50,852 nt of DNA from Macrostomum lignano (Eukaryota): positions 1 through 50,852 of the forward strand of contig NIVC01004312.1 of NCBI GenBank assembly GCA_002269645.1, written 5' to 3'. Below, piece after piece: positions 1,297 through 49,000 of the stretch. Each line of letters starts with the position of its first letter. Within the stretch, counting starts at the first letter, position 1. The position numbers and the translations under genes are program-made. The notes beneath the pieces were generated by a model. The model was given only the letters and a program-made list of their open reading frames with translations. It made no database searches and had not been told where the DNA came from.

Positions 1297-1451
1297 TAAT
1301 TATCTATATCTTTTTCATATTCTAGAAATGTATTATATTCACAATCACATTCGGATTCACAATCACAATCGTAATAATAATTATTTATTGCCGCTTTGTA
1401 TTCATTATATTTACTTATTATATCTTCTTTTTGTTTTTTATCTTTTATCAT
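1203..1451 (-). CDS. Small 82-aa viral ORF (K/Y/acidic, DCDCESECDCE segment) coupled to the polB stop
   Basis: Its ATG overlaps the reconstructed polB TGA (ATGA, 1448-1451). Confidence 0.6.
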   Translation of the reverse strand: MIKDKKQKEDIISKYNEYKAAINNYYYDCDCESECDCEYNTFLEYEKDIDNYYSTFPKELKKLNKEKVLNNWKRLTEKLLIG

Positions 1452-4400
1452 ATTTTTATCTCTTCTTTTAAACCATATGGATATGTTTTAATTTTATCAT
1501 CTAAATACCTTTTATCATCAAATGGACTTAATGTTTTTTTATCTGTCTCGATGACAAACATCTGATGCTTTTCTGAATTTAATCGATATTGTGGAGCATG
1601 ATAATTTTCAATTGTATTAAGGTAATCTAAAAGTACGTTTTTATAATCATCAAATGTTATCTTTTTTACTGCTGCTCTTGATACCCCTTTTATTTTTTTT
1701 ACCTCTCCCTCCTGTCCTAAAACCTTAAATGCATAGCATTTGATCTTATTGCTATAAACTCGGTTATGATTTTGCTATTTAATTCATCTTTCATTTTAAG
1801 TACAACTTTTTTATTTTGATCTGATTTTAAAGGATGGTTATCCGGATAGTCGGAGGTATCCAGTGTATCCTTAATTTTTTCCATATCTTTATAGACATCG
1901 AACCTTTGGTTCGTGGGCTTTGCCCGATCATCTGTTTCAACCTTAAATACCAAACTGTCGGTGTCTGCATATATTGGATAGTTATCTGGCCATGTTTTAT
2001 TTATAACATCATAATAGTATTCATACATTACCAGCTTTGCATAATCTAAAACAACCATTCCAATAAATATTGGTTTAAGAAATTTTGTTGTTTTATTTCT
2101 CATATGAATACCCATAAAGTTATCATCAAATTTTATAAAGTCTTTAAAGTTAGGTTTTGAGAAATATTTCTTTGCTTTATCAATATCCTTTTCTAAATGG
2201 AATTGGGTTCTATCTCTAATATTTTCAACCGTTTTTCCATAAAAAGCATTATTCATTAATTTCCAATAATCTTTCTCAAAATTTGTTTTTGACATCTGTC
2301 TCTGATTTGAATTAAAGTCAATATATTTAGCTAACCAATCTTCCTCAATAAACGATATTGTTCGATGTACTTTAGACACTTTTAATCCCTGTTTTTCATA
2401 AAATTGTAGAAGCTTATAATGCACTACATAGTTTTTCTTATCATGTAAATTTAATATTAATTTTTTTGTTGCTAGATGTTTTGCATTATCTACTTTAAGA
2501 TAATCTTTTTGTGTTTGTGATAAATCATCTTCATTAACTGAACAATGCTCTGGAGCTAAAGGATATTTATATGTTTTTGCTTTTGCTTCCCGAGTATATT
2601 GCAAATCCACCTCTACAATACAGCCCCTTCCTTCGGGAATATTTTTGTAATAATCGGGGTCATCTTCCCATTGGAAATCAGCTATTGGTAATTTTTGTTT
2701 CATACAACCACCGTATAAATTGTTTGCATCTAGATATAATACATATGATGATTTTTCTTTTTTATTATAATTTGGAAGATACTTATTATTTACTTTAGTA
2801 TATCTATCTCCTAGTACACCCGAGAATCCGCCGCGAATTCCTCTCTCAATCATTAACAACATATCATGATCAGTTAGTAAATCAATCTTAACATCTGTAT
2901 GTTTCAAACCACAAGCCCATGTTAATCCCGGTGCACTGAAACAATATGCGGGATCAATTTTAAAATTCTCATATGTATGATTCCTAAAGTTTTCAAATGC
3001 ATCAGCTAATAGGAGAACATCTGCTTTAAGATATAGATTATGATAATCTTTAAATGTTTTACAATTAAAGTATTTCCATACTTTTTGAGCGTGTTCATAA
3101 TCCGATTCACTTATATTTGATTGTGATAATGTGGAATAAAACTTTTCTATGGGCGGTAATTCGGTATGAAAAAATACGTCTTCAGATGTTACATATTCAT
3201 ATGGATAGATGCCCTTACGAGTTAATAGCATTAGTTCTTCCTCGGATAGTTTTTCTTTTTGAACGATTCAATAGTATTGGAAAGTTTTTCTTTACTATTT
3301 CTAAATCCCATGGTTTTGGAACTAATGATGAAACAACATTTGCTAAAGATGTTGATAAGAATCTCAAGGAATCTAGAAAAACTAGATGGGAGTATTTCTT
3401 ACCATATGTTATTGATATGTAATTTTCTGATGTTTTAGGTAATATATTTATTTCATATTCATCCTTTCCTAAATGAAGCAATTCTCGAACTAAGAAATGA
3501 AAATCATATCCGGAACCATTATGAAAAAATACTGGTATTTCCTTACATCCTTTTCCTTCTTTTGCATTACATGATCTACATGCTGCCCTCGATAATTTCC
3601 TGTTAGATGACAATGTTCTCGTATCTTATTATTCTTACTTAAATGTCTTTTGCACATAAAACAATTTGTTGCATTTTTATAATTGTCTCTATCCTTATTT
3701 GTCATATTAATATTTTTTGATAATTTATCATATTGATTTTGAATATATTCAAATACATTTACTAATGATTCTGCCATGTGCTTAGCTGCATCATTACCGT
3801 GGTAAGTAATCATCCTTGATTTAAATATATGATCAGCTACAGAGTGTACATATATACAATAACTATTCGGAAACTGTTGTGCCAATTTTTTTGTGCATTC
3901 GTCCCGTAGGGTCGCGTGCTTTGCACGATCCCCATCATCAGATGCCGTCTGTGATTCTTTTAAGGGAACATTTGTTGCTTCAAAATCAGCATATATTACT
4001 ATTGGTTTTTTAACTGCCATATAATGTTGTTGGAACTTTAGGGTTGCATCTTCAGATGCTGGCATTATAGCATTAGTAAATTTGTGATCTAAACAAAATC
4101 GTTGGTGGTTTTTAAGAGCTGTTTCATCCTTTTTAAATGTAAAACAATTTCTACATAGTGGATATCTATTTCTATTTTCTCTTAAAAAAGAACTAATATC
4201 TTTTATGTATATATAATGTGTTTCATTTTCGCGCTGCATGTACAAAAGATCGATTTGATCTGGTGCTGTTATATCAGTTGCTGGCTTAACAAGATAACAC
4301 CTTTTCTTATACCATTCTGGATCGGTTAAAATTTCTTCTAGATCTTTTGGTTCTTCAATTGTAAACACATTAATATTTAAACCATTCATTTTTTCAATCT

Positions 4401-5181
4401 TATATATATCATCTATTGCTACTGGGTATGATATGTTTTTCATTATTATTTCATCCTCATATTGTCTATAATTATATATTTTATTAATGTGTGATTCTAC
4501 TTGATTGTGATATTTATGAATTAATAAACACCATAATAAACATTTATTATCTTTATTGTCTGGATTTATAATCATAGGTGATTTAAATTTGAGCTTCATA
4601 TGTGATCGTCCTTTAAGAATTTCTATAGGTGCAATCTTTACTATTGCTGAATTACAGGATACAAATATAAACCCAGATCCGTTTTCTGTCATCTTATCTA
4701 TCCATTCATCAAACTCAGCTTCTATTTGATCGAATTGATTGTTGTAATTTCCCATTGATAATAATGTTTTATATGATTCTTGTGAAAAGTTATTTATTAC
4801 TTCAATTTCTGAATTTGCATTAAGAATATTTGGTTTTTTAAATTCTGTTTCAACTTCTATTTTATACTTAATTGGCTGTCGTTTGTTATTTGGCCTTATA
4901 GTATAATTGATTAATATGGTCTTTAATTTATCTTTCATTTGTTTAAAATATTCTTTATAATTTGTATTTATATCTATATCTATATATATTACTTCAGCTC
5001 CATTTTGTCCTTGTGGTTGGAGGTTATCAATATCATTTAATTGTCTTTCTAAACGTATCTCATTTTCTGCCCTAATTCTTGCTTCTATTTCAGCCCTATC
5101 GGCAATTCGTTGTGCTTCGATTTGAGCTATTAATTGTGCTCTAAGTTCAGGGTTGTCGATTTGAGCTAAAATTGCTTCCAT
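1448..5181 (-). CDS. polB: Protein-primed family B DNA polymerase (pPolB), about 1244 aa after repairing three single-base indels; N-terminal terminal-protein/OTU-like region, C2H2 finger and EndoVII/HNH insert
   Basis: ExoI YADFE, ExoII HNGSGYDFHFL, ExoIII YLKADVLLLAD, motif A YLDANNLYG, motif B KLMNNAFYGK, motif C YADTDSL. HNH-like CFMC...EHCHLTGNYRG/AACRSCN. Frameshifts: -1 in C-run 3586-3588, +1 in T-runs 3250-3260, -1 in T-run 1739-1741. The repaired C-terminus is RSKCYAFKVLG...KKTLSPFDDKRYLDDKIKTYPYG...EIKI*. Confidence 0.95.
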
Positions 5182-5265
5182 TTTATAGAATAAAATTTAT
5201 ATAATGTTTGAATTATTGATTTTTTAATTTTGTGTTTTTGGTGTCCTGACCCACCCCCCAGGAGC

Positions 5266-6259
5266 CTATTCGAGATCTGCTTTTGGTAACAGTAATCCAT
5301 TGCCCATAACGTTTGAATTTAAGAAAATTCCTGAACCTGCTTTTGGTCTCATTTCGAGATATAATCCGCTTCCGTCGTGTTTTTCAATGATATTAAAATC
5401 TTTTCCTAATTTATTAAAAATTTTCTGAACAGCTGGTCTAAAATTGGATCCAATATTGTCAAAAAATCCTTTAGCTTTCTCACCCGTTTTTTCTAAAGTT
5501 TGACCAAATTCATGTAGTTTATCTGCGACAAGTCCACTTCCTTGGGTTGTTCCTTTTAGTACCAAACCATTCCCGTGATTTGTTCCTTGCAAGAGTAAAC
5601 CTTTTCCAGCTGATAACCTAGCTTCTGCATTTCTTTTTTGCTCAGCTGTTGCTGAACTACTATTAATTGTATCGATAAGTTTTTGTTTAAATTGTGCGTC
5701 CTGCGTTATTTGCTGTCTTTGAAATTCGGCCTCTCTTTTAGCTTTTTCGTCCGCAGCTTTTTTGTCATTTACTGCTTTTGCAATTCCAGCTGCTCCGCCA
5801 GCAACTCTCCAGCTGCTCCAATTCCTGCAAAAATTATTGGGAGCAAAGCTGCAAGGGGCAAGATTCCCCCCTGTTTCGCTCTTAACTCTCCTAGCTGTTT
5901 TACATTATCATGAATTCTTTTTCCGGCTAAACCGACTGCTCCAGCTGCGCCAAGTCCTAAAAGAAGCGGTAGAATGGGTAGTAATCCGCCGTCCTTTTTA
6001 GTGTGAGTCTCCATTAAAAATTTCACATCGGAGTCTGTCAACCTATAATTTCTGCCGCGATTCTTAAAGATATTGGCCTTCCTTCTTGTGCATATTTTGC
6101 TGCGAGTTTAAATGTATCGATGTCGTAGTCAAACTTTTTACCTAATCGATCCAATCTTTTTAACATTGTGTGGGTTTGCTTATTATCATCAAGATTTAAG
6201 GTATCTACAATTTCTCCTATAAAATATAACCGGTTTTCATCATCATTAACTGAGCCCAT
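5266..6259 (-). CDS. Core/pX-like polyprotein, about 331 aa when three ORF-track fragments are joined
   Basis: Adding one base near 6040 gives ...AAEIIG-LTDSDVKF...; adding one near 5806 gives ...FAGIGAAGxVAGGAAGIAKAVNDKK...LSAGKGLLLQGTNHGNGL.... Two GG-(L/I)LP hydrophobic segments resemble adenovirus pX (GGFLPALIP). Repeated G-x-G-(L/I) motifs. Confidence 0.75.
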
Positions 6260-6269
6260 TTTTATATTG

Positions 6270-6668
6270 TTAAAATTTCTTTAATCCTTTTCCACCTTTA
6301 ATAGTATTTAACATTTTATTAAAATCCTGAATATCTTTATTACTTATTGGTGCGCTTTTCGTGGGGGTTTCTGTTGGTTGTGCGGCTTGTGCCAGCTTTA
6401 AATCTTTTATTGCATTTATTTGTGAGAGGGTGTCGTTAAAATCTCTCAATTTCTTTAGTTCTTCTGCCGCTCTAGCTGCTTCAATTCCTCCTTTTACAGC
6501 ATTTGTTATAGAGCCTGCTGCAGAGCCAGCTTGCCCTATAAGCCCCATATTGTCTTTAACAAAATTTGCTGCTGTTCCAACCAAATCAAAAAGTCCCTCA
6601 CCTCGGTATTCAATTGGATCTCCTACCTGATACTCATTTATATTTTGCACATGTGTAACGTGTGTCAT
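6270..6668 (-). CDS. pVI-like putative membrane-lytic virion protein, 132 aa
   Basis: True ATG at 6668 (CAAAAAATG). YRGE-GLFDLVGTAANFVKDNMGLIG amphipathic helix follows a GxG site; C-terminus IKGG-KGLKKF. Confidence 0.7.
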   Translation of the reverse strand: MTHVTHVQNINEYQVGDPIEYRGEGLFDLVGTAANFVKDNMGLIGQAGSAAGSITNAVKGGIEAARAAEELKKLRDFNDTLSQINAIKDLKLAQAAQPTETPTKSAPISNKDIQDFNKMLNTIKGGKGLKKF

Positions 6669-7077
6669 TTTTTGTTCTATTTTTAGTAACAGAAAAAAAG
6701 AATACGAGAACACACAAAAGAATATTTTTCAACCCAAGATGGTGTATATACTGCATTGAGTCATTTTTTTCTGGACGTCCAGAATTTTTCTGGACGATTT
6801 GTTAAAAACTTATTCATTGATGGTGGGCACCCCATTTTACTTGTGACGCGCGGAGCCTGTCTTCTTCTTCCTGAGAGATGAGCTAGAACTGGGTTGATGG
6901 CTGTGGTTTTTATAGAGTTGGATGGCTGAGTGGGCGTTCAATTCCTGCTACGGCAAGATTTTGCAAGCTAGCCAATAGTGGCTATGAGAGTAATTTTTTG
7001 TTGAGTGTTACTATTACCATGACTCAGTTTAAACTCTTTTGTGACCCTTCGCGCCTGCGGCGCGGGCAAGGGGTTAT

Positions 7078-7351
7078 AGAGTAGTAGTATAGAAAAAGAC
7101 GCTTCTAGATCAGACCTTATTTTAATTACCGTTTTTAAGGTCTTAAGAGGGGGGACGCGAGGGGAGTATTGGGGAGTGTTTGGAAGTGTTGGGATTGATT
7201 TTTATTGTTAGGGGTGATTATGGGTGATTAGATGTGTTAAGGGTGATTAGATGTGTTTTTTTATTTACCCCCCGTGTCCCCCCTCTAGACCCTTAAAACG
7301 GTAATTAAAAAAGTGCTCTGGGTCTAGAAGCGTCTTTTTCTATACTACTCT
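7078..7351. repeat. Terminal inverted repeat pair (arms about 7078-7165 and 7268-7351) enclosing a ~100-bp G/T-skewed loop
   Basis: AGTAGTATAGAAAAAGACGCTTCTAGA (27 nt) is identical in both arms; further identical blocks TTTTAATTACCGTTTT and GAGGGGGGAC. Confidence 0.9.
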
Positions 7352-8373
7352 CAACTCAGTCACGATGCTTTTTGATTTATGAATGCCTGGACTGCTAAAT
7401 CACAACAGTTATAGGAGAACCTACTGCTTCAGTATATATATTTATATTTTACGAGTTCTATGTGCAGGTATAGTATAGGATAGCATAGCTTATCATAGTT
7501 TCTCTGAACTTTGTTCTTGGTTATATTAATCAGGTAATCAAATATAGATTGGAATACAGTTTATGCTGGGCGGTGTTAATATAAAATTATATATTTATTA
7601 GCGCGTATATTGGGCTGACAGAGACCAGAGGGCTTTCTATTCTAAATAGCCGGTCGATACCATGGACAGCTGTAGTAAAAGGACTCTAAAACTACATGTA
7701 GATTTTATTAGAAAGGAGCTGGAGGCATCGCAAGTAGGGCAGTACGAATCTGATTTTTCTCAAACCGATTTTGTCTATGGTAAAACTCCATCCTCTGCCG
7801 CATTGCCCAACATCGTTAATAGCTGGTCTGCTCTCGACAACATCATTGCTCGCGCAAAAAACTTTGTAGCGCCACCAGTAAAACTGCTGCTGCTGCTGCA
7901 CTGGTGGTCACCTTCTGGGCTTTGCAGCCGTGTTTCTGCTTCTCTGATTTTTGGGTTCCTGCCCTCCCGTTCTTTTGTTTTCTCGTTCGTTAATACGTCC
8001 GTCATTCGATTTATTGACATATTCTTAAATTTTTAACTTCTTTTTAAGCTGATAAATAAACATGTGTTCGTCTTACCTTCAATCAGCCAGCCCCCACATT
8101 TCTTACTCACTAAAGCCGAGTTTCTAGTCCCTTCTTTCTATGGTAAATTTATATCGCAGAAGTCCCTGGCTGAATGCACTGGCAATACGATAAACATACG
8201 TTCCTTACTGGCTCAACCTCATATCTAAGAAAACTGAGTAAAGCCTCCTTTTTACGTCAGGTGTCCACGGTCACAATATTAAAATACTTGTGGAGTTTTA
8301 GGGTTAAAGTTTTTTTTAAACCGAGACATCTTAAACTACTGTCAATTGTCTTTTGACGAAATGAGTTTACAGC

Positions 8374-10332
8374 TTACTGCACACCGATGCAGGCCACCGG
8401 GTGGTACACCCCCCAGCACAGGCTGTACCGACGCCCGCCTCTCTTGTTGAGGCCAGTCGAGGTCAGCACGACTGACGGGATCAACTTCTGCAGGATTCCT
8501 TTTGGCAGGTTATGAGTAGCCTCGACATACTTCAGCTCATGCTTCACGTCGCCCAGCTGAAATTAGTGCAAAAAATATCACAGAATTGCTAAACCGTTGC
8601 AAAACTAGTTTCAAAGACTGCTAAACCAATCTTGACGACTGTTAAACCAATCTTGGCGATTGTTGAACTAATCTTGGCGATTGTTGAACTAATCTTGGCG
8701 ATTGTTGAACTAATCTTGGCGATTGTTGAACTAATCTTGGCGATTGTTGAACTAATCTTGGCGATTGTTGAACTAATCTTGGCGATTGTTGAACTAATCT
8801 TGGCGATTGTTGAACTAATCTTGGCGATTGTTGAACTAATCTTGGCGATTGTTAAACTAATCTTGGCGATTCTTAAACCAATCTTGACGACTGTTAAACC
8901 AATCTTGGCGATTGTTGAACTAATCTTGGCGATTTTTAAACTAATCTTGGCGATTGTAAACCAATCTTGGCGATTGTTAAACCAATCTTCACTATTGTTA
9001 AACTAATCTTGGCGATTGTTAAACTAATCTTGGCGATTGTTAAACCAATCTTGGCGATTATTAAACCAATCTTGGCGATTGTTAAACCAATTTTGGCGAT
9101 TGTTAAACCAATTTTGGCGATTGTTAAACTAATCTTGGAGATTGTTAAACCAATCTTGGCGATTGTTAAACCAATCTTGGCGATTGTTAAACTAATCTTG
9201 GAGATTATTAAACTAATCTTGGAGATTTTTAAACTAATCTTTGTGATTGTTAAACTAATCTTGGAGATTATTAAACTAATCTTGGAGATTGTTAAACTAA
9301 TATTGACGATTGTTAAACTAATCTTGGCGATTGTTAAACCAATCTTGACGATTGTTAAACTAATCTTGGAGATTGTTAAACCAATCTTGGCGATTGTTAA
9401 ACTAATCTTGGAGATTGTTAAACTAATATTGACGATTGTTAAACTAATCTTGGCGATTGTTAAACTAATATTGACGATTGTTAAACTAATATTGACGATT
9501 GTTAAACTAATATTGACGATTGTTAAACTAATCTTGGCGATTGTTAAACCAATCTTGGCGATTGTTAAACTAATCTTGGAGATTGTTAAACCAATCTTGG
9601 CGATTGTTAAACTAATCTTGGAGATTGTTAAACCAATCTTGGAGATTGTTAAACTAATATTGACGATTGTTAAACTAATCTTGGCGATTGTTAAACTAAT
9701 CTTGGCGATTGTTAAACTAATATTGACGATTGTTAAACTAATATTGACGATTGTTAAACTAATATTGACGATTGTTAAACTAATCTTGGCGATTGTTAAA
9801 CCAATCTTGGCGATTGTTAAACTAATCTTGGAGATTGTTAAACCAATCTTGGCGATTGTTAAACCAATTTTGGCGATTGTTAAACTAATCTTGGAGATTG
9901 TTAAACCAATCTTGGCGATTGTTAAACCAATTTTGGCGATTGTTAAACTAATCTTGGAGATTATTAAACTAATCTTGGTGATTGTTAAACTAATCTTGGA
10001 GATTATTAAACTAATCTTGGAGATTGTTAAACTAATCTTGGCGATTGTTAAACTAATCTTGGTGATTGTTAAACTAATCTTGGAGATTGTTAAACTAATC
10101 TTGGCGATTGTTAAACTAATATTGACGATTGTTAAACTAATCTTGGCGATTGTTAAACCAATCTTGGCGATTGTTAAACCAATCTTGGCGATTGTTAAAC
10201 TGATTTTGACGATTGTTAAACCAATCTTGTCACTCTCACCATCAGTTCCAGATTCTTATAGCGGCCAGCTGGCAGAGCCGAAAGCACCGTCGCCAGGCAG
10301 AGCAGAGCGAACGCCAAACCAATGCTGCTCAT
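8374..10332 (-). CDS. Two-exon secreted neuropeptide-like precursor, 91 aa (exons 10332-10240 and 8556-8374)
   Basis: Exon 1 [31 protein letters not shown] (signal peptide) ends at a GTGAGA donor. The TTTCAG acceptor gives phase-0 exon 2 [60 protein letters not shown]. Dibasic sites precede a two-Cys peptide. Confidence 0.85.
8620..10229. repeat. 21-bp minisatellite (AAACTAATCTTGGCGATTGTT)n filling the neuropeptide gene intron
   Basis: Direct inspection; causes the spurious 124-aa and 508-aa ORFs. Confidence 0.97.
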
Positions 10333-10727: not shown

Positions 10728-11158
10728 TCTCCTGTTCTATCCCTGTTCTATCCCTGTTCCATCCCTGCTCTATCCCTGTTCTATTCCTGTTCTATCCCTG
10801 TTCTATCCCTGTTCCATCCCTGCTCTATCCCTGTTCTATTCCTGTTCTATCCCTGTTCTATCCCTGTTCCATCCCTGCTCTATCCCTGTTCTATCCCTGT
10901 TCCATCCCTGCTCTATCTCTGTTCTATTCCTGTTCTATTCACTGTTCTATCCCTGTTCCATCCCTGCTCTATCCCTCTTCTATTCCTGTTCTATTCACTG
11001 TTCTATCCCTGTTCCATCCCTGCTCTATCCCTGTTCTATTCCTGTTCTATCCCTTTTCTATCCCTGTTCCATCCCTGTTCTATCCCTGTTCTATCCCTGT
11101 TCTATCCCTTTTCTATCCCTGTTCTATCCCTGTTCTACTCCTGTTCTACTCCTCTGTT
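10728..11158. repeat. ~11-bp minisatellite (CCCTGTTCTAT)n
   Basis: Direct inspection. Confidence 0.95.
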
Positions 11159-11562
11159 CTACTTAATTTTTTCCAAATCGCGTGTATGTCTCCTTACCTA
11201 CTCTTCCATAGCCATTGCTTTGCTCTGTGGTCTAAATTTTCCTGTTGTGATGCAAAATTTTCAGGCATAAAAATGTTCCAGAATAAAGATCCTCTATAGG
11301 AATTTTCTATTCCTAGAGCTCGTAATCGCTAGCCCTGCTTGTGCGTCATTCGGGGTTCGCCGGGTCTACAGGTGGCAGCTGAAGCACCAATAGGCACTCA
11401 AAGCGAGGAAAATGCACCTGAGGGACACGGGGTGGATAAGTTAGAGGCGCCATTACATAGAGCTGCTCTTCATCGCTCTTCATCGCTGGCCATCTGGGCT
11501 GCCAGTTGCGCTGGGCTGGAATCCCAGAAACCGCTTTCGTAGCACCGGAACCTGACTTAGTC

Positions 11563-13453
<1,891 letters not shown>

Positions 13454-21920: not shown

Positions 21921-21952
<32 letters not shown>

Positions 21953-21967
21953 CACACACACAGACAC

Positions 21968-22003
<36 letters not shown>

Positions 22004-22005
22004 TC

Positions 22006-22076
<71 letters not shown>

Positions 22077-22083
22077 AAGACAA

Positions 22084-22119
<36 letters not shown>

Positions 22120-22165
22120 TCAGACAGACAGACACACAGACAGACAGACAGACACACAGACAGAC

Positions 22166-22208
<43 letters not shown>

Positions 22209-22297
22209 GTCAAACAGACAGAAGACACACAGACAGACAGACAGACAGACAGACAGTCAAACAGACAGAAGACACACAGACAGACAGACAGACAGAC

Positions 22298-22344
<47 letters not shown>

Positions 22345-22437
22345 GTCAAACAGACAGAAGACACACAGACAGACAGACAGACAGACAGACAGTCAAACAG
22401 ACAGAAGACACACAGACAGACAGACAGACAGACAGAC

Positions 22438-22480
<43 letters not shown>

Positions 22481-22526
22481 GTCAAACAGACAGAAGACAC
22501 ACAGACAGACAGACAGACAGACAGAC

Positions 22527-22573
<47 letters not shown>

Positions 22574-22606
22574 GTCAAACAGACAGAAGACACACAGACA
22601 GACAGA
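21856..22606. repeat. (CAGA)n microsatellite
   Basis: Direct inspection. Confidence 0.97.
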
Positions 22607-23089
22607 TGGCAAAAAGAAGCAACGGGGAATTCAAGAACAGCAAGCCAGTTATCGCATAATGCAGTTAAGGCATCAAAGCCGAACGCGTCCTGCTATCAAT
22701 AGTACAAACATTACTCCAACACAGTTTTAATTAATTTATTTCTGCAGACAGTTGAGCCGTTCAGCGCCTTCACAAATGGTAGCACGGGAGTCCCGCGCCA
22801 ATAAGTTCAAGCATAAATAATATAAAAAGTTTGAGTAAGAAACCTGTGCAACTTAGTGCGAGTCAGTGGAAGTTAGAGCGCAATAAATCATTACAAAGTA
22901 CAAAATGAAGCAACATAAAGCATTTCTAGGCACGAGAAAGATTTGAACTCAGAAACTCACTGATAGGCAGGTAAGGAAGGAAAGTCGCAATCGAAAAAAA
23001 GTTGGTACTACTCAAATATCGACAAAGTACAAAGGTGCCAGTGAAAGCGACTCAAAATTTACGCAGTGCAACTGATCAACTTTGGTCAC

Positions 23090-23601
23090 TTGTAGATCAG
23101 GGGGGGTCAGTTGATCAGGTGGGTCAGTAGATCTAGTGGGTCAGTAAATCAGGTGGGTCAGCTGATCAGGTGGGTTAGTAGATCAGGTGGGTCAGATGAT
23201 CAGGTGGGTTAGTAGATCATGTGGGTCAGATGATCAGGTGGGTTAGTAGATCAGGTGGGTCAGATGATCAGGTGGGTCAGATGATCAGGTGGGTCAGATG
23301 ATAAGGTGGGTCAGTAGATCAGGTGAGTCAGTTGGTCAGTAGATTAGGTGGGTCAGTAGATCAGGTGGGTCAGTAGATTAGGTGGGTCAGTAGATCAGGT
23401 GGGTCAGTAGATTAGGTGGGTCAGTAGATCAGGTGGGTCAGTAGATTAGGTGGGTCAGCCGATCTAGTGGGTCAGTAGATTAGGTGGGTCAGATGATCAG
23501 GTGGGTCAGCTGATAAGGTGGGTCAGTAGATCAGGTGAGTCAGTTGGTCAGTAGATCTAGTGGGTCAGTAGATCAGGTGGGTCAGTAGATCAGGTGGGTC
23601 A
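23090..23601. repeat. 17-bp minisatellite (TCAGGTGGGTCAGTAGA)n
   Basis: Direct inspection. Confidence 0.95.
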
Positions 23602-24361
23602 ATAGCGGAAGTCTACCAGAGCAAGTCAAAGTACAAGTGGATACAAATAAGTAGTCTGCGTTGATTTTTAAGAAATAAATTTCCAAGAATAGGCATTCCA
23701 ACATTTTACTTTCTCAATCATTCTATAAGTCTGCACTAGAAATCTTTTTGAACCAATACAGCACCAAAAATTGAATGAATTTTCTATATCTACTACTACT
23801 TTATCAACTACTTGTAGTACTAAATTACCGACAAATACATAAAAAAAACAGATCAAGTGGAATGGTTTTAACAGACTTTATCAATTATGTTACTGTTAAA
23901 GAATTAAATAATAATTTAGAAAGATAAATTAAAAGTCAGTAAAATGTATAAGTAGTCAGTTACCTAGAACAATTGTGGAACCAAAGGATGGCAATGCTGC
24001 ATTTTTATCGGTTTAACTTTTTTAATCCAAAATATCTGATTTATTAAACAGTGCTGTGACACAACAGTTTTGTCCGAATCAAATGAACTAAATTAACAAA
24101 GCGCAAGCAAAGCATAAAGCAAAGGTCAATCAGGAAAAGTTGCTCTCTACATAAAAACATTGCTACTTACGTCGTACTTATAGTAGTCAGTCAATTTGTA
24201 AACTGTAACAAAGTCATTCAACTAATCACTGCTAGAATAACACACGCTAGTAAAATGTGGCATCGCATACAGGAAACGACAAACGAGAAATGACGCCGCA
24301 ATCCTAATTAGCTGCAGGAGAAGTGTAACAGAGAAAAGGGACTGAAAAGTGTGTCCTGAAT

Positions 24362-24429
24362 TGTCTGTCTGTCTCTGCATGTCTGCCTGCCTGTCTGTCC
24401 GTCTGTCTTTCCGTCTGTCCGTTTGTCTT

Positions 24430-24466
<37 letters not shown>

Positions 24467-24467
24467 G

Positions 24468-24498
<31 letters not shown>

Positions 24499-24531
24499 AT
24501 GTCTGTCTGTGTGTCTGTCTGTCTGTCTGTG

Positions 24532-24602
<71 letters not shown>

Positions 24603-24615
24603 ATGTCTGTCTGTG

Positions 24616-24691
<76 letters not shown>

Positions 24692-29163: not shown

Positions 29164-32100
29164 TTAGCCGGCTTCATTGGCGTATCTGCGCTGCATTTCA
29201 ATGTCGCGCAGCTGTTCCAGGGTGAGCAGCGACACGCCCAGCTGATCCTGACGGGTGAACGGCTGGGCCATTTGTTTGAGAAATCGGCGAGATATTTGCA
29301 CGGCTTCGTCCACTGAGAGATTGAGTACAGCCTCGCTTAGGTTTTCCTGGGGAATTATAGTGTGCTTGTGCAGTTCAGTCCTGGGAATTACAGTGTGCCT
29401 GAGAAATTTAGCCTAGGGGGAATTACAGTGTGCTTGTGCAGTTTAGTCCTGGGGAATTACAGTGTGCTTGTGCAGTTCAGTCCTGGGGAATTACAGTGTG
29501 CCTGAGAAATTTAGCCTAGGGGGAATTACAGTGTGCTTGTGCAGTTTAGTCCTGGGGAATTACAGTGTGCCTGAGAAATTTAGCCTAGGGGGAATTACAG
29601 TGTGCTTGTGCAGTTTAGTCCTGGGGAATTACAGTGTGCCTGTGCATTTAGCCACTGGGGAATTACAGTGGGCCTGCGCAATTTAGCCACTGGGGAATAC
29701 ATTGTGCCTGAGCAATTTGGCCACTGGGGAATTACAGTGTGCCTGTGCATTTAGCCACTGGGGAATTACAGTGGGCCTGCGCAATTTAGCCACTGGGGAA
29801 TTACATTGTGCCTGTGCATTTAGCCACTGGGGAATTACAGTGTGCCTGAGCAATTTAGCTACTGGGGAATTACAGTGTGCCTAAATATTTTAGCCACTGG
29901 TGAATTACAGTGTGCCTGAGCAATTTAGCCACTGGGGAATTACAGTGGGCCTGCGCAATTTAGCCACTGGGGAATTACAGTGTGCCTGCGAAAATTAACC
30001 CTGGGGAATTACAGGAGTACCTGCGCAGTTTAGCCATAGAATTCCAGATATTTTTCAGGGTTTATCAGAATTCCAAAACTTCCGCAATGTCTCGTGAGCC
30101 GAAAATAATTTTTCTGATGTCTTTTTCATACATAGGTAATTATTTGTTGCAAATGAAACCCAGTTTACTGTCTAAAACAGTTTTTAAAAATGACCGCATT
30201 AAAAAACTCACTCCTCAAGGGTGTCTGTGCGGGCATGCGTATTATCTAATCTGAAAATTACCTTGAGTGTGTCAAATATGTACTGCACTGGCTAAGCATG
30301 GTCCCATTTAATTTCTGCACAGCGACAGTTAAGAATTCATATTCCAGTTATGATTTTTCATAAATTTCAAGGCACATACATAGCGTGTGAGCGTAAAGGA
30401 CAAAGTTCAAAGCAATAATTGAACTGGACCGAGAAAACTCGATGCCAACTTTGGAAGTCCCTCGTATTTTAATTTCAGATCACACGTAGTTTTTGCAACC
30501 ATTGGGTTTATGTGTACATTGAGGGAATAAGGAATCCATCGGGTTTACATGCATATGTACACTGGGGGTAGGGAAATCCATCGAGTTTATATGTACAATG
30601 GGGGTAGGGAAATCCATCGGGTTTACATGTACACTGGGGGTAGGGAAATCCATCGAGTTTATATGTACAATGGGGTAGGGAAATCCATCGGGTTTACATG
30701 TACACTGGGGGTAGGGAAATCCATCGAGTTTATATGTACAATGGGGGTAGGGAAATCCATCGGGTTTACATGTACACTGGGGGTAGGGAAATCCATCGAG
30801 TTTATATGTACAATGGGGGTAGGGAAATCCATCGGGTTTACATGTACACTGGGGGTAGGGAAATCCATCGGGTTTATATGTACACTGGGGGGTAGGGAAA
30901 TTCATCGGGTTTATATGTACACTGGGGGGTTAGGAAATCCATCGGGTTTATATGTACACTGGGGGGTAGGGAAATCCATCGGGTTTATCTGTACACTGGG
31001 GGGTAGGGAAATTCATCGGGTTTATATGTACACTGGGGGTAGGGAAATCCATCGGGTTTACATGTACACTGGGGGTAGGGAATTCCATCGGGTTTATATG
31101 TACACTGGGGGTAGGGAAATCCATCGGGTTTACAATATGTACACTGGGGGTAGGGAAATCCATCGAGTTTATATGTACAATGGGGGTAGGGAAATCCATC
31201 GGGTTTACATGTACACTGGGGGTAGGGAAATCCATCGGGTTTACATGTACACTGGGGGTAGGGAATTCCATCGGGTTTACATGTACACTGGGGGTAGGGA
31301 AATCCATCGGGTTTATACTCGTATGTACAGTGTGAATAGAAAAATGTATCTGCGATTTAATGTACAGAGGGGTAGAGAAATCGGCAATTGAATACAAATT
31401 GGCTCAAAGTACACACTGAAGTACACATAGACATGCATCCGCACTGTAAAGATACCTGAATCCACCTGGGCAGTTTTGTTCGCTTGTCGGCCCTGGCGAA
31501 CCGTTTGTCAGCGAACAGCATGATGCCATAGTCGGTCTTGCCTCTCAGCGCCCGCCCAACGCACTGGGCCGCGTGCCGCATTGCATCGAACGTGAGAAAG
31601 TCGTTCTCCCTGATGTGAAAGTGTTCACGCAGATAGTCTAGGCGGGTCTTCAGAATTCTGCTCTGGGTATAGACGTAGGGAACGCCAAACATAATTACGC
31701 AACGGCCCAAATGATGATCGAAGTCGATACCCTCGGACACTTTGCCGCGAGCTACTGATAGTAGTATAGCGCCGCGTCCATTCTCGCAGGCTCGCTGATA
31801 GTTATAGAGAGCGATGCTAGTCTCTTGAGCGTCCTGAGTTTCGATGAACACTAGCTTGTACTTTTGCACCTGATCGATAATCTTCTGCTCGTACCAGGCC
31901 GCGAATATGGTCTCCAGGTACAGATAGCTGGGAAAGAAGCAGACGAGGCCGTCTGGTACAACTCGGGCCATTTCTAGCAGCAGGCTGCCGTAGTTGCGCA
32001 TCACTGCTGGGTCTTCGCGACTCTCGTAGCGAGAGGTTATGGTCACCTGACAGGTGTGGATTAACGATTTTTACATACTGTAACATTTATATAACTATAA

Positions 32101-35100
32101 AAATGCATACTTGGGTTTAATATACATCAAAGGATATCGCTTCATCAATTTGGGAAGCTGGGAGTAGGAACTAGGGATAAAAATCTTACAGGTGACGCTT
32201 CATCGACTCGGGAAGCTGGGAGCAGGGATAAAAGTCAAACAGGATATCGCTTCATCAACTCGGGAAGCTGGGAGTAGGAATAAAGGTCCTAAAGGATATC
32301 GCTTCATCAACTTGGGAGGCTGGGAGTAGGGATAAATATCCTACAAGATACCGCATCAACTCGGGAAGCTGGGAGTAGGGATAAACATCCTACAGGATAC
32401 CGCTACATCAACTGAGGAAGCTGGGAAGAAGAAGCTAGTAAAGATTAGAATAAAGATCTTAATCGACAAACTGCACAAACCGTAAAAAAACAAGCAAATT
32501 CAAAACCCACAGTTTTTTCTCACCTGATCATTGCCCTTAGCAACAATCATAGGACAGATACACTGCCTAGCCAGCGTGACAGTGAATGACACCATATTAA
32601 CTGGCCGGAAGTCCAATATACGCGGATACATTTCCAACGGTGACAGAGTGCCTGAGGTGATCAATACAGTTTGGAAGCGGGCAAACACAGGCCTGACAGC
32701 GATGCTGGCGTCCATGCAAGTCAGGTGCATGATCGGATTGATCACAGTCGGTGCCCGATCGTCGAAGGGTTCAACTAGGAAGCAGAATCCGCGCAGATAG
32801 GTAGCTAGCAGGGTGGCCAGGTTGGCTACGCGGAACAGGCTGCCCAGTTCTGGCGATTCGGCCACCTCCAGCGTGGCCAGGAGGCTGCGCAGGCGCTCGT
32901 GACAGAACCGAAGCGGCTTCCGATCCAGGCACACCCGTTCGGAGCAGTCGCGCAGAAATGCGGCCGGACTCTCCGACACGACGTGGACAACTCGGAGTCG
33001 AAGTTTCAAGTATTCGAGGAAACGGCGCAGGAAGGCTAGGAAATGCTCGGCTGTGCGAATGTTGCCTGGCACCGCTTCGCGTAGCACCTGCGGGCGGGAA
33101 TGGGGGTGGCGGTGGCTTGGGAACTGGGTGAGAAACTGGTTAGAGAGGGGTGAGAAACTGGTTGGAGATGGGTGAGAAACTGGTTAGAGGGGGTGAGAAA
33201 CTGGTTAGAGATGGGTGAGAAACTGGTTGGACATGGGTGAGAACCTGGCTGAGAATCATGAGAAACTGGCTGAGAATCATGAGAAACTGATAAGCCACAA
33301 TTACCTGATCTGGAAGCACAGGATTAGCCAGAATGAGGTCAGTCTCCCTAGCGGACTGGGCCTCGCGCAGGTTATTAACAAGCCTGTTGTACTCCTCCTG
33401 CAGCTTGGCGGCGTCTTGCTGCTTGATCTCTCTAACCCGATTCTGCAAGCTGTTCAAGCCTAGCTGAGCACGGTCTAACGACCGGCGACTCAGCGTTACG
33501 CTCATTGATTCGATGCAGACATTGTCAATGTTGTGCGCCTCGTCGAACACAACAATGCTAGATTTGGGCAGCTGCTTGGAAACTAATTCGGATATTTTCG
33601 GATCCAACAGATAGTGATAGCTGTATACAATGATGTTGGCAGTTGACATTGAATACCGGGCAAAGAAGTACGGGCATAGGCCTTTACGGCGACCGTAGGC
33701 CTTCAGGTGCAAAATGGGGGCGGCGTTCCTGTAAGCTAATTAAATTCATAGTTACTCCTGCCGAATACCTTACTGACAGTCACTACTAATTAGATGACGA
33801 GGCAATATAGCTTGCTAGTCAAAAAATTCATAGTTACTCCTGTCGAATACCTCACTGACAGTCACTAGTAGTCACTACTAATTAGATGACAAGGCAATAT
33901 AGCTTGCTAGTCAAAAAATTCATAGTTACTCCTGCCGAATACCTTACTGACAATCTCTACTAATTAAATGAAGCAATGTGGCTAGTCAAGAAATTCATAG
34001 TTACTTTTGCCGAATACCTTAATGAAAATTACTACTAATTAGATGACGAGGCAATGTGGCTAGTCAATAAAGCCATAGTTACTCCCGTTCTTATTATCTT
34101 CCAATTTACCTTCAAATCGTCCAGATTGTACACCCCAGGCGGCAGCAAGAACTCCCGGCCGTGAGCGTCGAATTCTTCGTAGTACTGACAGCCTGGCGGC
34201 GCGGATTCAACATCGGCGCCGGCGCGGCCAATAGCATGGCGCCGACGATCGCGCACAAAACTGGCGGTGAGCTGATGACAGGCGCTGTCGATTGACCGAC
34301 CGTCACCGGCGTTGCCCTCCAGCACGTCGGCGTTGATGCATAAATTTTTGCGCGAGCTAAGCGCCATACCGGTCAGGTTGAGCGTGACGCCATTCTTAGT
34401 GTAATAATCGAATAGAGTCTTCATCTCTTCTACAACTTTCTCTAGCTCAGGCACGGTGCGCGAACAATACACCAGCTTGCTCACGTGATCTGGCGAATGG
34501 TGCAGATAGGCCACGGTCAGAGACAGAATTGTGATGGTTTTACCCGTGCCAGACGGCATCTCGAGTACGCAATGACCCTGAAAATTGATATTGCAAATCA
34601 AAAAAAAACAAAATTAGATTTTAATGTCCAATTACGCTACTTATAGTAGATTTCGATATCTAAAAAATGAAACAGTTAGCAGTAGCAAACCTTAGCATCG
34701 ATGCTCCTTTTAAACTCCACCATGTAGGAGTACTGCTCCGGGTAGATGTACTCATATGGAAATAGGACAGGCAAGCCGTCTACATTCAATCTGTTTGGCA
34801 GGTTAAAGACAATGTATTTTATTAGCATTGTTGCTTTTAGATTTCTATTAAACATGAAATTTGATTTTTACAAATCAAATTACAAATTATACAGCACTGT
34901 ATTAGCATTTAGTATCATGGGTTCAAATTCTGGTCACCAAATTGCAAACCAGGGTACCAGCTGGTGTCAGTTAAGAAGTTTAGGATCAAATAAATGCCTG
35001 TCTCTAACCTTTACTGTGGAGGGGTGTAGCCTAGAGGTCTCATGCAGCACTCTTATGTGCATACATACATCTTGGCTTGGCTCTGCTTGTGCAATTAACA

Positions 35101-46000: not shown

Positions 46001-49000
46001 TGTGCGGAAAGAGAAGAAACAGATTCCAGCATCAGACGCGGGTTGCAGGGCACATTGAAGGAGCAGTATCAGGCTAAAGTGGAACTGACAACCTGCCTGA
46101 TCCAAGAACGACCCTCGAGGGCCGAATCTGACTTGACCCCCGGCCAATCCGACTCGGGACCGCCGCTCGGGACCCTTTTGACACTTTAGCCGGTGTCTGT
46201 CAAGCTAAGGGGTGTTGCGGGGTTGGGAAACCCTGTCGGCTATTTTCAGAAGTTCGGTCTGGGCAGGCACGATGAAAAGTTTCGGTGCACTTTTCTGCAA
46301 TCCTTTCCCGCGTGCCAAAAGCCCCCAGCCTCCTGATGCAGAATTTCCTATAGGGAAACGGGCCACTTTCCTGTGCGCAAACCAGAGCTGATTCCCTCTC
46401 CGCTTCTCTTCAAGTCCCGCTCTGCTGGCACAAAGTTTCCTATTTCTCCTCTTATCTCTTCATCATTCTCAGCTGCCTTTCTCATTCTATCTCTGACTCT
46501 TATCTTGGATTGTCACCCACGGTAGCGAGATGGAGACTCCAGGTGCGGGATGGAGAGGTGGTTAAAGACCGTTGACGGAACTTCCCGGGCCTCAGGTAGT
46601 TAATCCGCCCAGGGTAAGGATTTGGACCAGCCATCCATAAGGCTGTCAGACAGTAAAGTCCAAAGTCGAAAAATGAAGAAAAATAATTGAGCAATTAAGC
46701 TGTCGAAAAGGAAAGTCAATTAGTAATCAGGGAGACAGAAGAGAGAAGGGAGCAGTTGGTATTCTTTATAGACATTTACATGAATTTTTGCCAAATGAAA
46801 ATTTTCTCTGACCTTGGGGATATCCAAAGATAATTTCAGGAAGATTTCTTAGTGATTTTCTTTCTTGACAGCTTCGACAATTTGTTAGAGAAAAATCCGA
46901 TTTCTAGAGAGCATAACGTTTTAACAAACACGTTGAAATGAGCAGTCAGCATCTCTAAACTAGAGAAAAATGCTTCCGATTTCATCTAAAAAAAAACAAA
47001 AAAACTTCGAGCCAGCTAAAAACAGCTTTTTTGTTTCTACTTTGCCCATTCAATACAGTCACAATTAGCCATCATTGGCTTTGTGGCTTTGAGATTGCAA
47101 TCGGAACACACAGCGGCGCTTATCTTTCCATCTCAGGTTACTTCATTATGAGCTTAAAATAGTTTAGTCGGTGTTTGAGCTCACCAGTTTTTCAGTTTTC
47201 CTGGTGTCCTTGCTTTGCATAGGGGCGTCGCCATTGATTTTATGGTGTGTGGGTGGACAAAGCCAAGACTAAATTCCTGCATTATTTTGAGAATCGGTGT
47301 TGATAGCACTCATTTTGGCGCCTCAGGCACTCATTTTGGTGCCGCAGGAACTCATTTTTGCGCCGCAGGCACTCATTTTGGCGCCGCAGGCACTCATTTT
47401 GGTGCCGCAGGCACTCATTTTGGCGCCGCAGGCACTCATTTTGGCGCCGCAGGCACTCATTTTGGCGCCGCAGGCACTTATTTTGGCGCCGCAGGAACTC
47501 ATTTTGGTGCCGCAGGCACTCATTTTGGCGTCGCCGGCACTCATTTTGGCGCCGCAGGCACTCATTTTAGCGTCGCCGGCACTCATTTAGCGCCGCCGGC
47601 ACTCATTTTGGCGCCTCAGGCACTCATTTTGGCGCCCTAAAGCAAAATTATTGATTTCCATAACATAGCTTTTACTGGGGGGGGGGCATGCCCCCTGTCC
47701 CCCGCGACGCCCCTGGCTTTTACATTCCTTTTGCCATTTAACTGATTCAAGGAGACCATAAAGCTGGAATCTGGAATGACAACTACTAACTAAACGGTTT
47801 GATCTCTAGACAATTAACTGCATAGGCGTAGGAACGGGGGACAGTGGGCCATGGCACCCCCATTATTTAAATTGGGGGGGGGCAGTAATGGTATCTGGCC
47901 CCTCCCCATTTTAAATGCAAAATGTAGACTTTTTGCTTATTTTTTACTTTTATTTCTGGTTTTTGCTGCTTTGCATGAATGCATTTTGCTGCAGGACGAC
48001 AAAACATAGCGCCTGCGGCGCCAAAATGAGTGCCTGCGGTGCAAAAATGAGTGCCGGCGGCACCAAAATGAGTGCCTGCGGCGCCAAAATGAGTGCCTGC
48101 GGCGCCAAAATGAGTGCCTGTGGCGCCAAAATGAGTGCCTGCGGCGCCAAAATAAGTGCCTGCGGCGCCAAAATGAGTGCCTGCGGCGCTAAAATGAGTT
48201 CCTGCGGCGCCAAAATGAGTGCCTGCGGCGCCAAAATAAATGCCTGCGGCGCCAAAATGAGTGCCTGCGGCGCCAAAATGAGTGCTGACAACACCGATTC
48301 TGAAAATAATTGGTATATGATAATGTGCATTTTCCATATAAAAAACATCTGTGCGCCCCCCCCCCCCTTAAATCCGCCACTGAACCTGGCCGCCCACTTT
48401 TTGAAACGTTCCTACGCCTATGACTGACTGACTGCAGTTCTTCAGTTCACACACAAAAGATAGGTGAGAGTTTCTCTATAATCTTTTACTAAAGTTATCA
48501 AAAGCTTGGTTATTTGTTTTGATTCCAAATTAGCTCATTGCAGCTATGGTGTCAAACGCTCTCGCAAGCATTTCTCATTCTTCTAGCTATACTCGACTCA
48601 GAGAGCCCCGCTTTTTTCCCGAGTACGAGCCACGACATGATTTATTCAGGTCTTGCCATTCTGCTGCGTTATACGATATCGCATACGAGAGATGCAACTC
48701 AACCAACGAACAAAAAGGTGTGTTGCTTTTTATTGCTCACATCGTTAATCACAGCGATGCCGCGTATAAGGAAGGAGAGAAAAGTACAACCCAGGAAATG
48801 CCTCGAGCACTTCGGGCCACTTTCTTATCGAGAAGATAGTAAAATAACGCTTAATTCATGCGACAATGCAATCTCGATTCAATTCATTCAGAAAATCATT
48901 GTAGAATTGCTGACTTCATTGATGGACAACAAAAATAAACTCAGGGATTGGATTTAGGCCCCTTAATGCAATTAGGTTATTTAACCTTGTTAATCTTGTT

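What the first reader, a model, noticed from the sequence alone, without database searches (positions are those of the whole stretch)
7078..7351. Polinton end carries two opposed replication-origin-like termini only ~270 bp apart
Seen: the AGTAGT-tipped terminal sequence is present at the outer end (7351) and again, inverted and diverged, at 7078. The internal copy has one extra AGT unit, the loop is strongly G/T-skewed, and no TSD flanks the pair. Established: Polinton ends carry short AG/AGT repeats suited to slide-back protein priming, and TIR partners normally lie at opposite ends of the element. Inference: a subterminal fold-back (panhandle) end, or a second origin able to release a ~274-bp mini-replicon. 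Divergence between the arms argues against a simple assembly duplication.
Basis: partly seen in the sequence, partly recalled or inferred. Interest (0 to 1): 0.7.

Follow-up and report, generated by a model that had tools for sequence, protein, structure and literature searches.

The report
Fold-back end of a flatworm Polinton
The end of a virus-like jumping gene in a flatworm genome carries a reversed copy of its own tip, so a single strand can fold back on itself; related copies share this design, which may let each end rebuild or repair its own replication start, but no function has been shown.

Summary
The inverted repeat is real: arms 7083-7164 and 7268-7349, 86% alike, first 27 bp identical, around a 103-nt loop without C. 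It lies at the right end of a Polinton/Maverick-type element (broken pPolB gene) in a Macrostomum-like flatworm genome. Two corrections: the element ends at 7349, not 7351, so the target-duplication candidate is CTCAAC, not CAACTC; and the shared end block starts at 7043, adding a GC hairpin. Contigs of four public runs show different interiors converging at 7043 and diverged copies keeping the inner arm: this is family architecture, not an assembly duplication. Some copies seem to lack the inner arm. No free ~270-bp copies or common flipped forms were seen, but only 24 of 274 loose-end rows were shown. Three related termini lack the fold-back. Best reading: a terminal repeat with a built-in panhandle that gives displaced strands a local duplex origin (function inferred, about 0.45). 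Terminal palindromes are described in protist virophage/PLV repeats; ten literature searches found none like this in an animal pPolB Polinton. The scan earlier noted only a smaller hairpin in a Giardia element's end. New variant of a known kind.

The parts
7268..7349 (-). Outer arm: true element terminus, reading 5'-(AGT)2 inward on the minus strand
   Evidence: loose ends behind 7349 and X11 contig starting at 7350; end motif as in PMC8097293
7083..7164 (+). Inner arm: inverted copy of the terminus, first 27 bp identical, 86% overall
7080..7082 (+). Extra AGT in front of the inner tip; 7081-7088 reads GT+(AGT)2, the form seen at the contig ends of two related elements
   Evidence: sequence; L016 and L029/L030 ends
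7165..7267 (+). 103-nt loop, G/T-rich with no C, unpaired in the fold, with a 19-nt-spaced direct repeat
7045..7072 (.). GC-rich hairpin (6-bp CG stem, 3-nt loop, 3-nt bulge, 5-bp base) at the inner edge of the shared block
7043..7349 (.). Shared terminal block of 307 bp, the probable TIR (partner end lies outside the window)
   Evidence: contigs 6678/6668/6765-7072 end where 7043 begins to be shared; loose ends before 7043 in 3 of 4 runs; joints 6697/6699 to 7043/7045
7350..7355 (+). Candidate 6-bp target-site duplication CTCAAC (left copy not in the window)
   Evidence: position of the end, letters; inference
6700..7042 (.). 343-bp spacer carried by a minority of copies; TATA-like box at 6907-6914 on the minus strand
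   Evidence: summed depth about 580 against over 16,000 next to it in X1; joints that skip it; TATA box read from the sequence
5266..6671 (-). Cluster of small ORFs, some broken; one has a weak match to adenovirus protein X
   Evidence: PF05829, E 0.03, below the cut-off; atlas search gave nothing usable
1448..5181 (-). Protein-primed DNA polymerase B gene, broken by three frame changes (near 3590, 3270 and 1740)
   Evidence: PF03175 E 7.9e-08; best relatives 53-58% identical; pieces mapped with full-length relatives

Best explanation
The 307-bp terminal repeat of this Polinton family has a reversed copy of its own origin built in. Shown: the sequence, its fold, the true end at 7349, and the inner arm in diverged copies. 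Inferred origin: an ancestral copy-back or template switch by the element's strand-displacing polymerase, inherited by later copies. Inferred function: when a strand is excised or displaced, its end pairs with the inner arm 180-270 nt away and forms an 82-bp duplex whose end is the normal (AGT)2 origin. Terminal protein and pPolB can then start there without the far end, 15-20 kb away, having to find it, and the 3' end is protected. Selection on that local duplex, or repeated copying between the arms, keeps the tip-proximal 27 bp identical while the mid-stem drifts.
For: Stem stability on both strands (z -13.5, -12.2, -15.9). Differences avoid the first 27 of 85 columns (P about 0.01-0.02 if placed at random, chosen after seeing the data). 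(4 of 18 runs, 3 studies): interiors converge at 7043, not at the inner tip; joints 7117/7121/7122 to 7251/7257 (X1, X11, X16) and 7121 to 7316 (X13) show contigs of diverged copies that hold the start of the inner arm and part of the outer arm in the same order, one of them apparently reaching both tips; summed depth over the block is roughly 1-4 times that over the adjacent genes, as a repeat at both ends would give (the tool warns this is no copy number). Panhandle origins and jumping-back priming are the accepted model for Polintons (PMC4196379 passages; PMC8097293 passages).
Against: No experiment or free molecule was seen. Some copies seem to lack the inner arm (X13 loose end behind 7080; joints 7076 to 7257 in X11 and X16). 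Most laid contigs carry other letters at 7127-7128 with no matching change listed in the outer arm (40 of 106 rows shown), so the mid-stem is not kept by compensatory change. Three related termini (L016, L029/L030, L047) have no inverted tip copy, so Polintons do not need it. The left end is outside the window. Joints rest on sides of 24-34 letters at 85% likeness and one contig per run. A paired 3' end could be extended into a dead snap-back product, a cost to the element.
Confidence: 0.45

Rival explanations
1. Neutral relic: one copy-back accident in an ancestor was inherited by the whole family; occasional conversion between the arms keeps the tips alike, and it does nothing for replication.
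For: Copies without a recognisable inner arm; mid-stem mismatches without listed compensation; absent from 3 of 3 related termini; the Halocafeteria preprint names accidental annealing as an alternative for terminal palindromes (10.64898/2026.07.28.741278, section 7).
Against: Retained in diverged copies in 4 of 4 runs; perfect 27-bp tip; long inverted repeats are usually unstable (general knowledge), so long retention suggests upkeep.
Confidence: 0.25
2. End-repair template: the inner arm keeps the unprocessed terminus. After excision the 3' end folds back and is extended by a few bases, restoring the dinucleotide that a retroviral-type integrase trims; the GC hairpin 10 nt further stops run-on synthesis.
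For: Inner copy reads GT+(AGT)2; 2 of 3 related elements whose contigs end at a terminal motif begin with GT+(AGT)2 (L016; L029/L030), 2 nt longer than the integrated end; position of the GC hairpin. Dinucleotide trimming by retroviral integrases is recalled knowledge.
Against: Those relatives have the longer end without any fold-back; slide-back priming could restore the bases alone; contig ends are not proven molecule ends; L047 ends at (ACT)2 exactly.
Confidence: 0.12
3. Second origin or MITE: the inner tip is used as an origin, releasing a 267-270-bp mini-element that is replicated and inserted in trans; or such a mini-element forms the end here.
For: Both ends of 7083-7349 are complete origins; in X13 and X16 summed depth over the block is about 3-4 times that of the adjacent genes; 250 of 274 loose-end rows were not shown.
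Against: No TSD around the pair; no loose ends before 7080/7083 among the rows shown; convergence is at 7043; in X1 and X11 the depth ratio is about 1-2; no other copy in the window.
Confidence: 0.1
4. Hairpin self-priming as in parvoviruses: the paired 3' end primes synthesis and a nick resolves the hairpin, giving flip and flop ends.
For: The last 20 nt of the plus strand are fully paired in the fold; proposed for terminal palindromes of protist virophages/PLVs; close relatives of the polymerase carry an endonuclease VII-like domain; one opposite-strand joint 7075/7317 in X1.
Against: That joint is 1 of 8, in one run, at depth 69 against thousands, and not where a flip would fall (about 7109/7322); no outer-arm letters at 7110-7119 among 40 of 106 rows shown; the element has pPolB and slide-back end repeats; the inserted nucleases are read as homing-type insertions in PMC11161782 (passage).
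Confidence: 0.06
5. Assembly artefact or one-off rearrangement of this copy.
For: The window's polymerase gene has three frame changes and its letter at 7127 is rare among laid contigs, so the assembly may hold errors; no listed contig spans both arms of this copy.
Against: Arms differ by substitutions and indels; both arms are covered at depth in the thousands in 4 of 4 runs and diverged copies show the same order.
Confidence: 0.04

Closest known systems
Polinton/Maverick elements (polintoviruses, adintoviruses) of animals
   Same: pPolB gene, (AGT)2//(ACT)2 end motif, terminal block of usual length (46-1,447 bp in vertebrates, PMC8097293 passages; 100-1,500 bp, PMC10748475 passages), many dispersed copies.
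   Different: The terminal block holds an inverted copy of its own tip; term look-ups for palindrome or hairpin gave no hits in PMC8097293 and none for palindrome in PMC10748475. Kapitonov and Jurka 2006 could not be read and may describe related rearranged ends; Repbase was not available.
Terminal palindromes of endogenous virophages and PLVs of Halocafeteria seosinensis (bioRxiv 10.64898/2026.07.28.741278; section 7 and a methods passage read)
   Same: Palindrome inside the TIR next to the TSD, proposed to fold into a priming hairpin.
   Different: There 52-nt palindromes found with a gap limit of 10 nt, mostly in elements without pPolB, in a protist; here 82-bp imperfect arms, a 103-nt skewed loop, a pPolB element of an animal.
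Adenovirus and bidnavirus panhandle origins
   Same: A single strand regenerates a duplex origin by pairing inverted termini; short end repeats allow jumping back (PMC8097293 passage; otherwise recalled).
   Different: There the two genome ends pair; here each end could pair with itself.
Parvovirus/AAV terminal hairpins; fold-back telomeres of Streptomyces linear replicons (both recalled, not read)
   Same: A 3' end that folds back on an internal complement.
   Different: No Rep-type nickase in the window, no common flip/flop forms seen; loop much longer.
Casposon TIRs with internal palindromes (PMC4046053 passages)
   Same: Self-synthesising transposons with palindromes in their TIRs.
   Different: Prokaryotic, Cas1 integrase; not described as copies of the tip.

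Membership tests
Polinton/Maverick | Protein-primed DNA polymerase B | tested here: met
   PF03175 hit; 53-58% identity to best relatives; gene broken in this copy
Polinton/Maverick | (AGT)2//(ACT)2 or (AG)3//(CT)3 end motif | tested here: met
   ACTACT at 7344-7349 with the end placed there; right end only
Polinton/Maverick | TIRs of 100-1,500 bp at both ends | tested here: inconclusive
   307-bp block shared by copies with different interiors; left end outside the window, no genome held
Polinton/Maverick | 5-8-bp (usually 6-bp) target-site duplication | tested here: inconclusive
   candidate CTCAAC; an empty-site-like contig in X11; left flank not visible
Polinton/Maverick | Retroviral-type integrase, ATPase, protease, capsid genes | not testable with these tools
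   only about 7.3 kb of the element is in the window; no Pfam hit for them among the ORFs scanned; a relative's integrase region found no match
MITE / non-autonomous mini-element | Short non-coding element with terminal inverted repeats | tested here: met
   7083-7349
MITE / non-autonomous mini-element | Own TSD on both sides | tested here: not met
   TTATAG or TAGAGT against CTCAAC
MITE / non-autonomous mini-element | Free copies with unique flanks at both ends | tested here: inconclusive
   none among 24 of 274 loose-end rows; none in the window; 0 exact 20-mer matches in viral contigs
Parvovirus-type rolling-hairpin terminus | 3' end pairs with an internal complement | tested here: met
   prediction only
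Parvovirus-type rolling-hairpin terminus | Flip and flop forms of the hairpin | tested here: inconclusive
   one low-depth opposite-strand joint at an unexpected place; no common flipped form among rows shown
Parvovirus-type rolling-hairpin terminus | HUH (Rep) nickase | not testable with these tools
   none in the part of the element within the window
Halocafeteria-type terminal palindrome | Palindrome with a gap of at most 10 nt next to the TSD | tested here: not met
   loop of 103 nt against the preprint's search settings

The most novel reading that the evidence does not exclude
This Polinton family has self-sufficient, self-repairing ends: each terminal repeat stores the unprocessed terminus as an inverted template, so a single excised strand folds back, restores the bases lost at integration, is stopped by the adjoining GC hairpin, and presents a duplex origin to the terminal-protein polymerase. 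That would be a hybrid of hairpin and protein priming and would address how an integrated Polinton regains a replicable end; the inner origin might also shed 267-bp satellite replicons.
Probability: 0.15. Interest if true: 0.8.

Novelty: new variant of a known kind. Interest (0 to 1): 0.5.

Why it matters
How an integrated Polinton is excised and regains a protein-primed end has only a paper model (end-to-end racket). A family whose ends carry their own complement is a natural experiment: comparing hundreds of copies in one genome can show whether the fold-back is selected, whether ends flip, and whether minimal ~270-bp replicons exist, which would define the minimal origin and integration signal. 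If it is a relic, it still records polymerase template switching at the end.

Tried and rejected
Whole genome not held, so no direct scan for the left end or free copies. Exact 20-mer of the tip in viral contigs: 0; a 16-mer gave 47 stretches, best match to the block 24 bp, none with a fold-back, taken as chance. Single-protein locus search: 7 candidates, 0 confirmed. Among 102 polymerase-bearing loci and the window, 688 AGTAGT/AGAGAG sites were tested for an inverted copy within 1.2 kb: 3 hits, all this feature; 0 of 485 in 66 further loci, 47 of which are the chance 16-mer loci and many re-fetches. Inverted repeats at the contig ends of L036 and L081 lie in coding sequence and were set aside as likely chimeras; L051 is A/T-only. 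Rfam: two matches far below gathering score, a generic hairpin hit. Atlas search of ORF 6270-6671: best 0.83, not usable. Loose ends at 6660 and 7069 in X13/X16 look like library adapter (recalled) and were dropped. The rare T at 7127 matches the outer arm and could be conversion, but assembly error is as likely: not used as support. The endonuclease VII domain as a resolver of the hairpin: possible, no evidence.

Full report
Observation. The region holds an imperfect inverted repeat: 7083-7164 against 7268-7349, 85.7% over 84 columns, E 1.6e-19, with no third copy in the window. In a global alignment 11 of 85 columns differ (10 events) and none lies in the first 27, which begin with AGTAGT; random placement would give this with P about 0.01-0.02, a figure chosen after seeing the data. 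The loop, 7165-7267, is A21 C0 G35 T47. As single-stranded DNA the segment folds at -65.1 kcal/mol, z -13.5, 0 of 200 shuffles as stable; both strands fold, and a separate GC hairpin appears at 7045-7072. The inner copy has an extra AGT at 7080-7082. No 6-bp direct repeat flanks the pair.

Context. Left of it lies an A+T-rich, gene-dense stretch with a protein-primed DNA polymerase B gene on the minus strand (PF03175; best relatives 53-58% identical, most with an endonuclease VII-like domain). The gene is broken by three frame changes, near 3590, 3270 and 1740. Small ORFs at 5266-6671 include one with a weak adenovirus protein X match (E 0.03). Integrase, ATPase, protease and capsid genes are not in the window, which holds only about 7.3 kb of the element. 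The host XPD gene at 31357-34613 is 95% identical to a Macrostomum lignano protein, next best 70-80%, so the host is that flatworm or a close relative. No whole genome was held.

What other copies show. Sixteen public runs hold part of 5200-8200; four of the 18 listed, from three studies, all contigs, were laid on 6000-7800 at 85% likeness. One may be the sample behind the window. (a) The end. Loose ends begin behind 7349 (X16, 3 contigs, agreement 0.54, i.e. mixed flanks). (b) The inner boundary. Unbranched contigs end at 7072 in three runs, as expected if several sequences join at 7043; loose ends before 7043 appear in X1, X11 and X16, and joints link 6697/6699 to 7043/7045. So the shared block is 7043-7349, 307 bp, and includes the GC hairpin; the 343 bp before it belong to a minority of copies (summed depth about 580 against over 16,000 beside it in X1). 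That this block is the TIR is inferred, since the left end is unseen. (c) The inner arm in other copies. Of 8 joints, four kinds (7117, 7121 or 7122 to 7251 or 7257 in X1, X11, X16; 7121 to 7316 in X13) come from contigs that match the start of the inner arm and then the outer side, with an unmatched middle; the X13 one has a 34-letter side, the length of 7316-7349, so it probably reaches both tips. A variant outer-arm middle begins behind 7288 (X11 3 contigs, X16 5). These rest on one contig per run and sides of 24-34 letters. (d) Against uniformity: one X13 contig leaves at 7080 into loop-like G/T-rich sequence, and joints 7076 to 7257 (X11, X16) suggest copies whose inner arm is missing or unrecognisable. 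Nearly all laid depth at 7127, and most at 7128, shows G, with no matching outer-arm change among the 40 of 106 rows shown, so typical copies pair slightly worse in mid-stem than this one. (e) Free mini-copies and flips: no loose end before 7080 or 7083 among 24 of 274 rows; one opposite-strand joint (7075/7317, X1, depth 69), not at the place a flip would give. Summed depth over the block is about 1-2 times the adjacent genes in X1 and X11 and about 3-4 times in X13 and X16; the tool states this is no copy number. None of the 32 of 1900 listed pieces spans both arms of this copy, and raw reads were not available.

Relatives. Polymerase alignments fetched 22, 80 and 27 loci (partly overlapping). 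Three distinct elements end in a Polinton motif: L016, L029/L030 and L047. None has an inverted copy of its tip (best scores 16-22 against 54 here); L029/L030 has an unrelated 59-bp hairpin about 130-190 bp from its tip. Two of the three begin with GT+(AGT)2, two bases longer than the integrated end and the same as 7081-7088. These relatives are distant (37-43% identity), so the fold-back looks family-specific, on a small sample.

Mechanism. Shown: structure, fold prediction, true end, presence in diverged copies. Inferred: origin by copy-back or template switch of the strand-displacing polymerase. Most likely use (0.45): a local panhandle that gives an excised or displaced strand a duplex (AGT)2 origin and shields the 3' end, in place of the end-to-end racket of the standard model (PMC4196379 passages; jumping back, PMC8097293 passage). 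Rivals: neutral relic (0.25), end-repair template limited by the GC hairpin (0.12), mini-replicon or MITE (0.10), parvovirus-like hairpin priming (0.06), artefact (0.04).

Comparison with what is known. It works like an adenovirus-type panhandle compressed into one end (recalled). It is very probably a Polinton end (polymerase and end motif met; TIR pair and TSD inconclusive; other core genes untestable). It is not filed as a MITE (own TSD not met). The nearest description is the 2026 Halocafeteria preprint: palindromes within TIRs next to TSDs, 52 nt in one subtype, mostly with non-pPolB replication genes, with hairpin priming or accident as explanations (section 7 and a methods passage read). 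Casposon TIRs also hold palindromes (PMC4046053 passages). Passages only were seen of PMC11296320, PMC10748475, PMC6431247, PMC3014272, PMC8363768, PMC8502044, PMC11161782 and 10.1101/068312; none described an inverted tip copy. Ten searches found no such report for animal Polintons; Kapitonov and Jurka 2006 was not held, and it, Repbase entries and unread supplements may describe similar ends. The scan's own notes gave no match by sequence or place, only an 18-bp hairpin in a Giardia element's terminal repeat and a giant palindrome ending in a Maverick-like terminus, unchecked.

Verdict. Real, family-level and unusual, with corrected boundaries; a new variant of Polinton end architecture whose function is unproven. 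Interest 0.5.

Noticed in passing
window 6700-7042: Segment carried by a minority of copies; others join 6697-6699 to 7043 through short spacers. It has a TATA-like box and short palindromes, so subfamilies may swap the promoter region of the end-proximal genes.
   Followed up: partly
window 7350-7556: An X11 contig stops matching exactly at the element's end, as an empty allele would: the insertion may be polymorphic between samples.
   Followed up: partly
window 7127-7128: The window's letters match the outer arm but are rare among laid contigs: arm-to-arm conversion or assembly error.
   Followed up: partly
window 7200-7250: Loop has degenerate TT(A)GGG-like repeats and G runs on the strand whose 3' end is the terminus, reminiscent of telomeric strand bias (by eye; G runs).
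   Followed up: no
L015 4657-4840: 184-bp inverted repeat in a polymerase-bearing viral contig with (ACT)2 and (AGT)2 motifs facing outward and a TGATAC direct repeat at its left edge and just after it.
   Followed up: no
L030 13044-13102 (= L029 134-192): 59-bp hairpin inside the terminal region of a related element, not a copy of the tip.
   Followed up: partly
window 31357-34613: Host XPD/ERCC2 helicase gene in at least four exons on the minus strand.
   Followed up: partly
window 8630-10230, 10740-11150, 11560-13000; 21938-24616; 47281-48310: Long tandem arrays (about 21-bp unit by eye, 10-bp unit by eye, 4-bp units) and inverted repeat arrays in the host flank.
   Followed up: no
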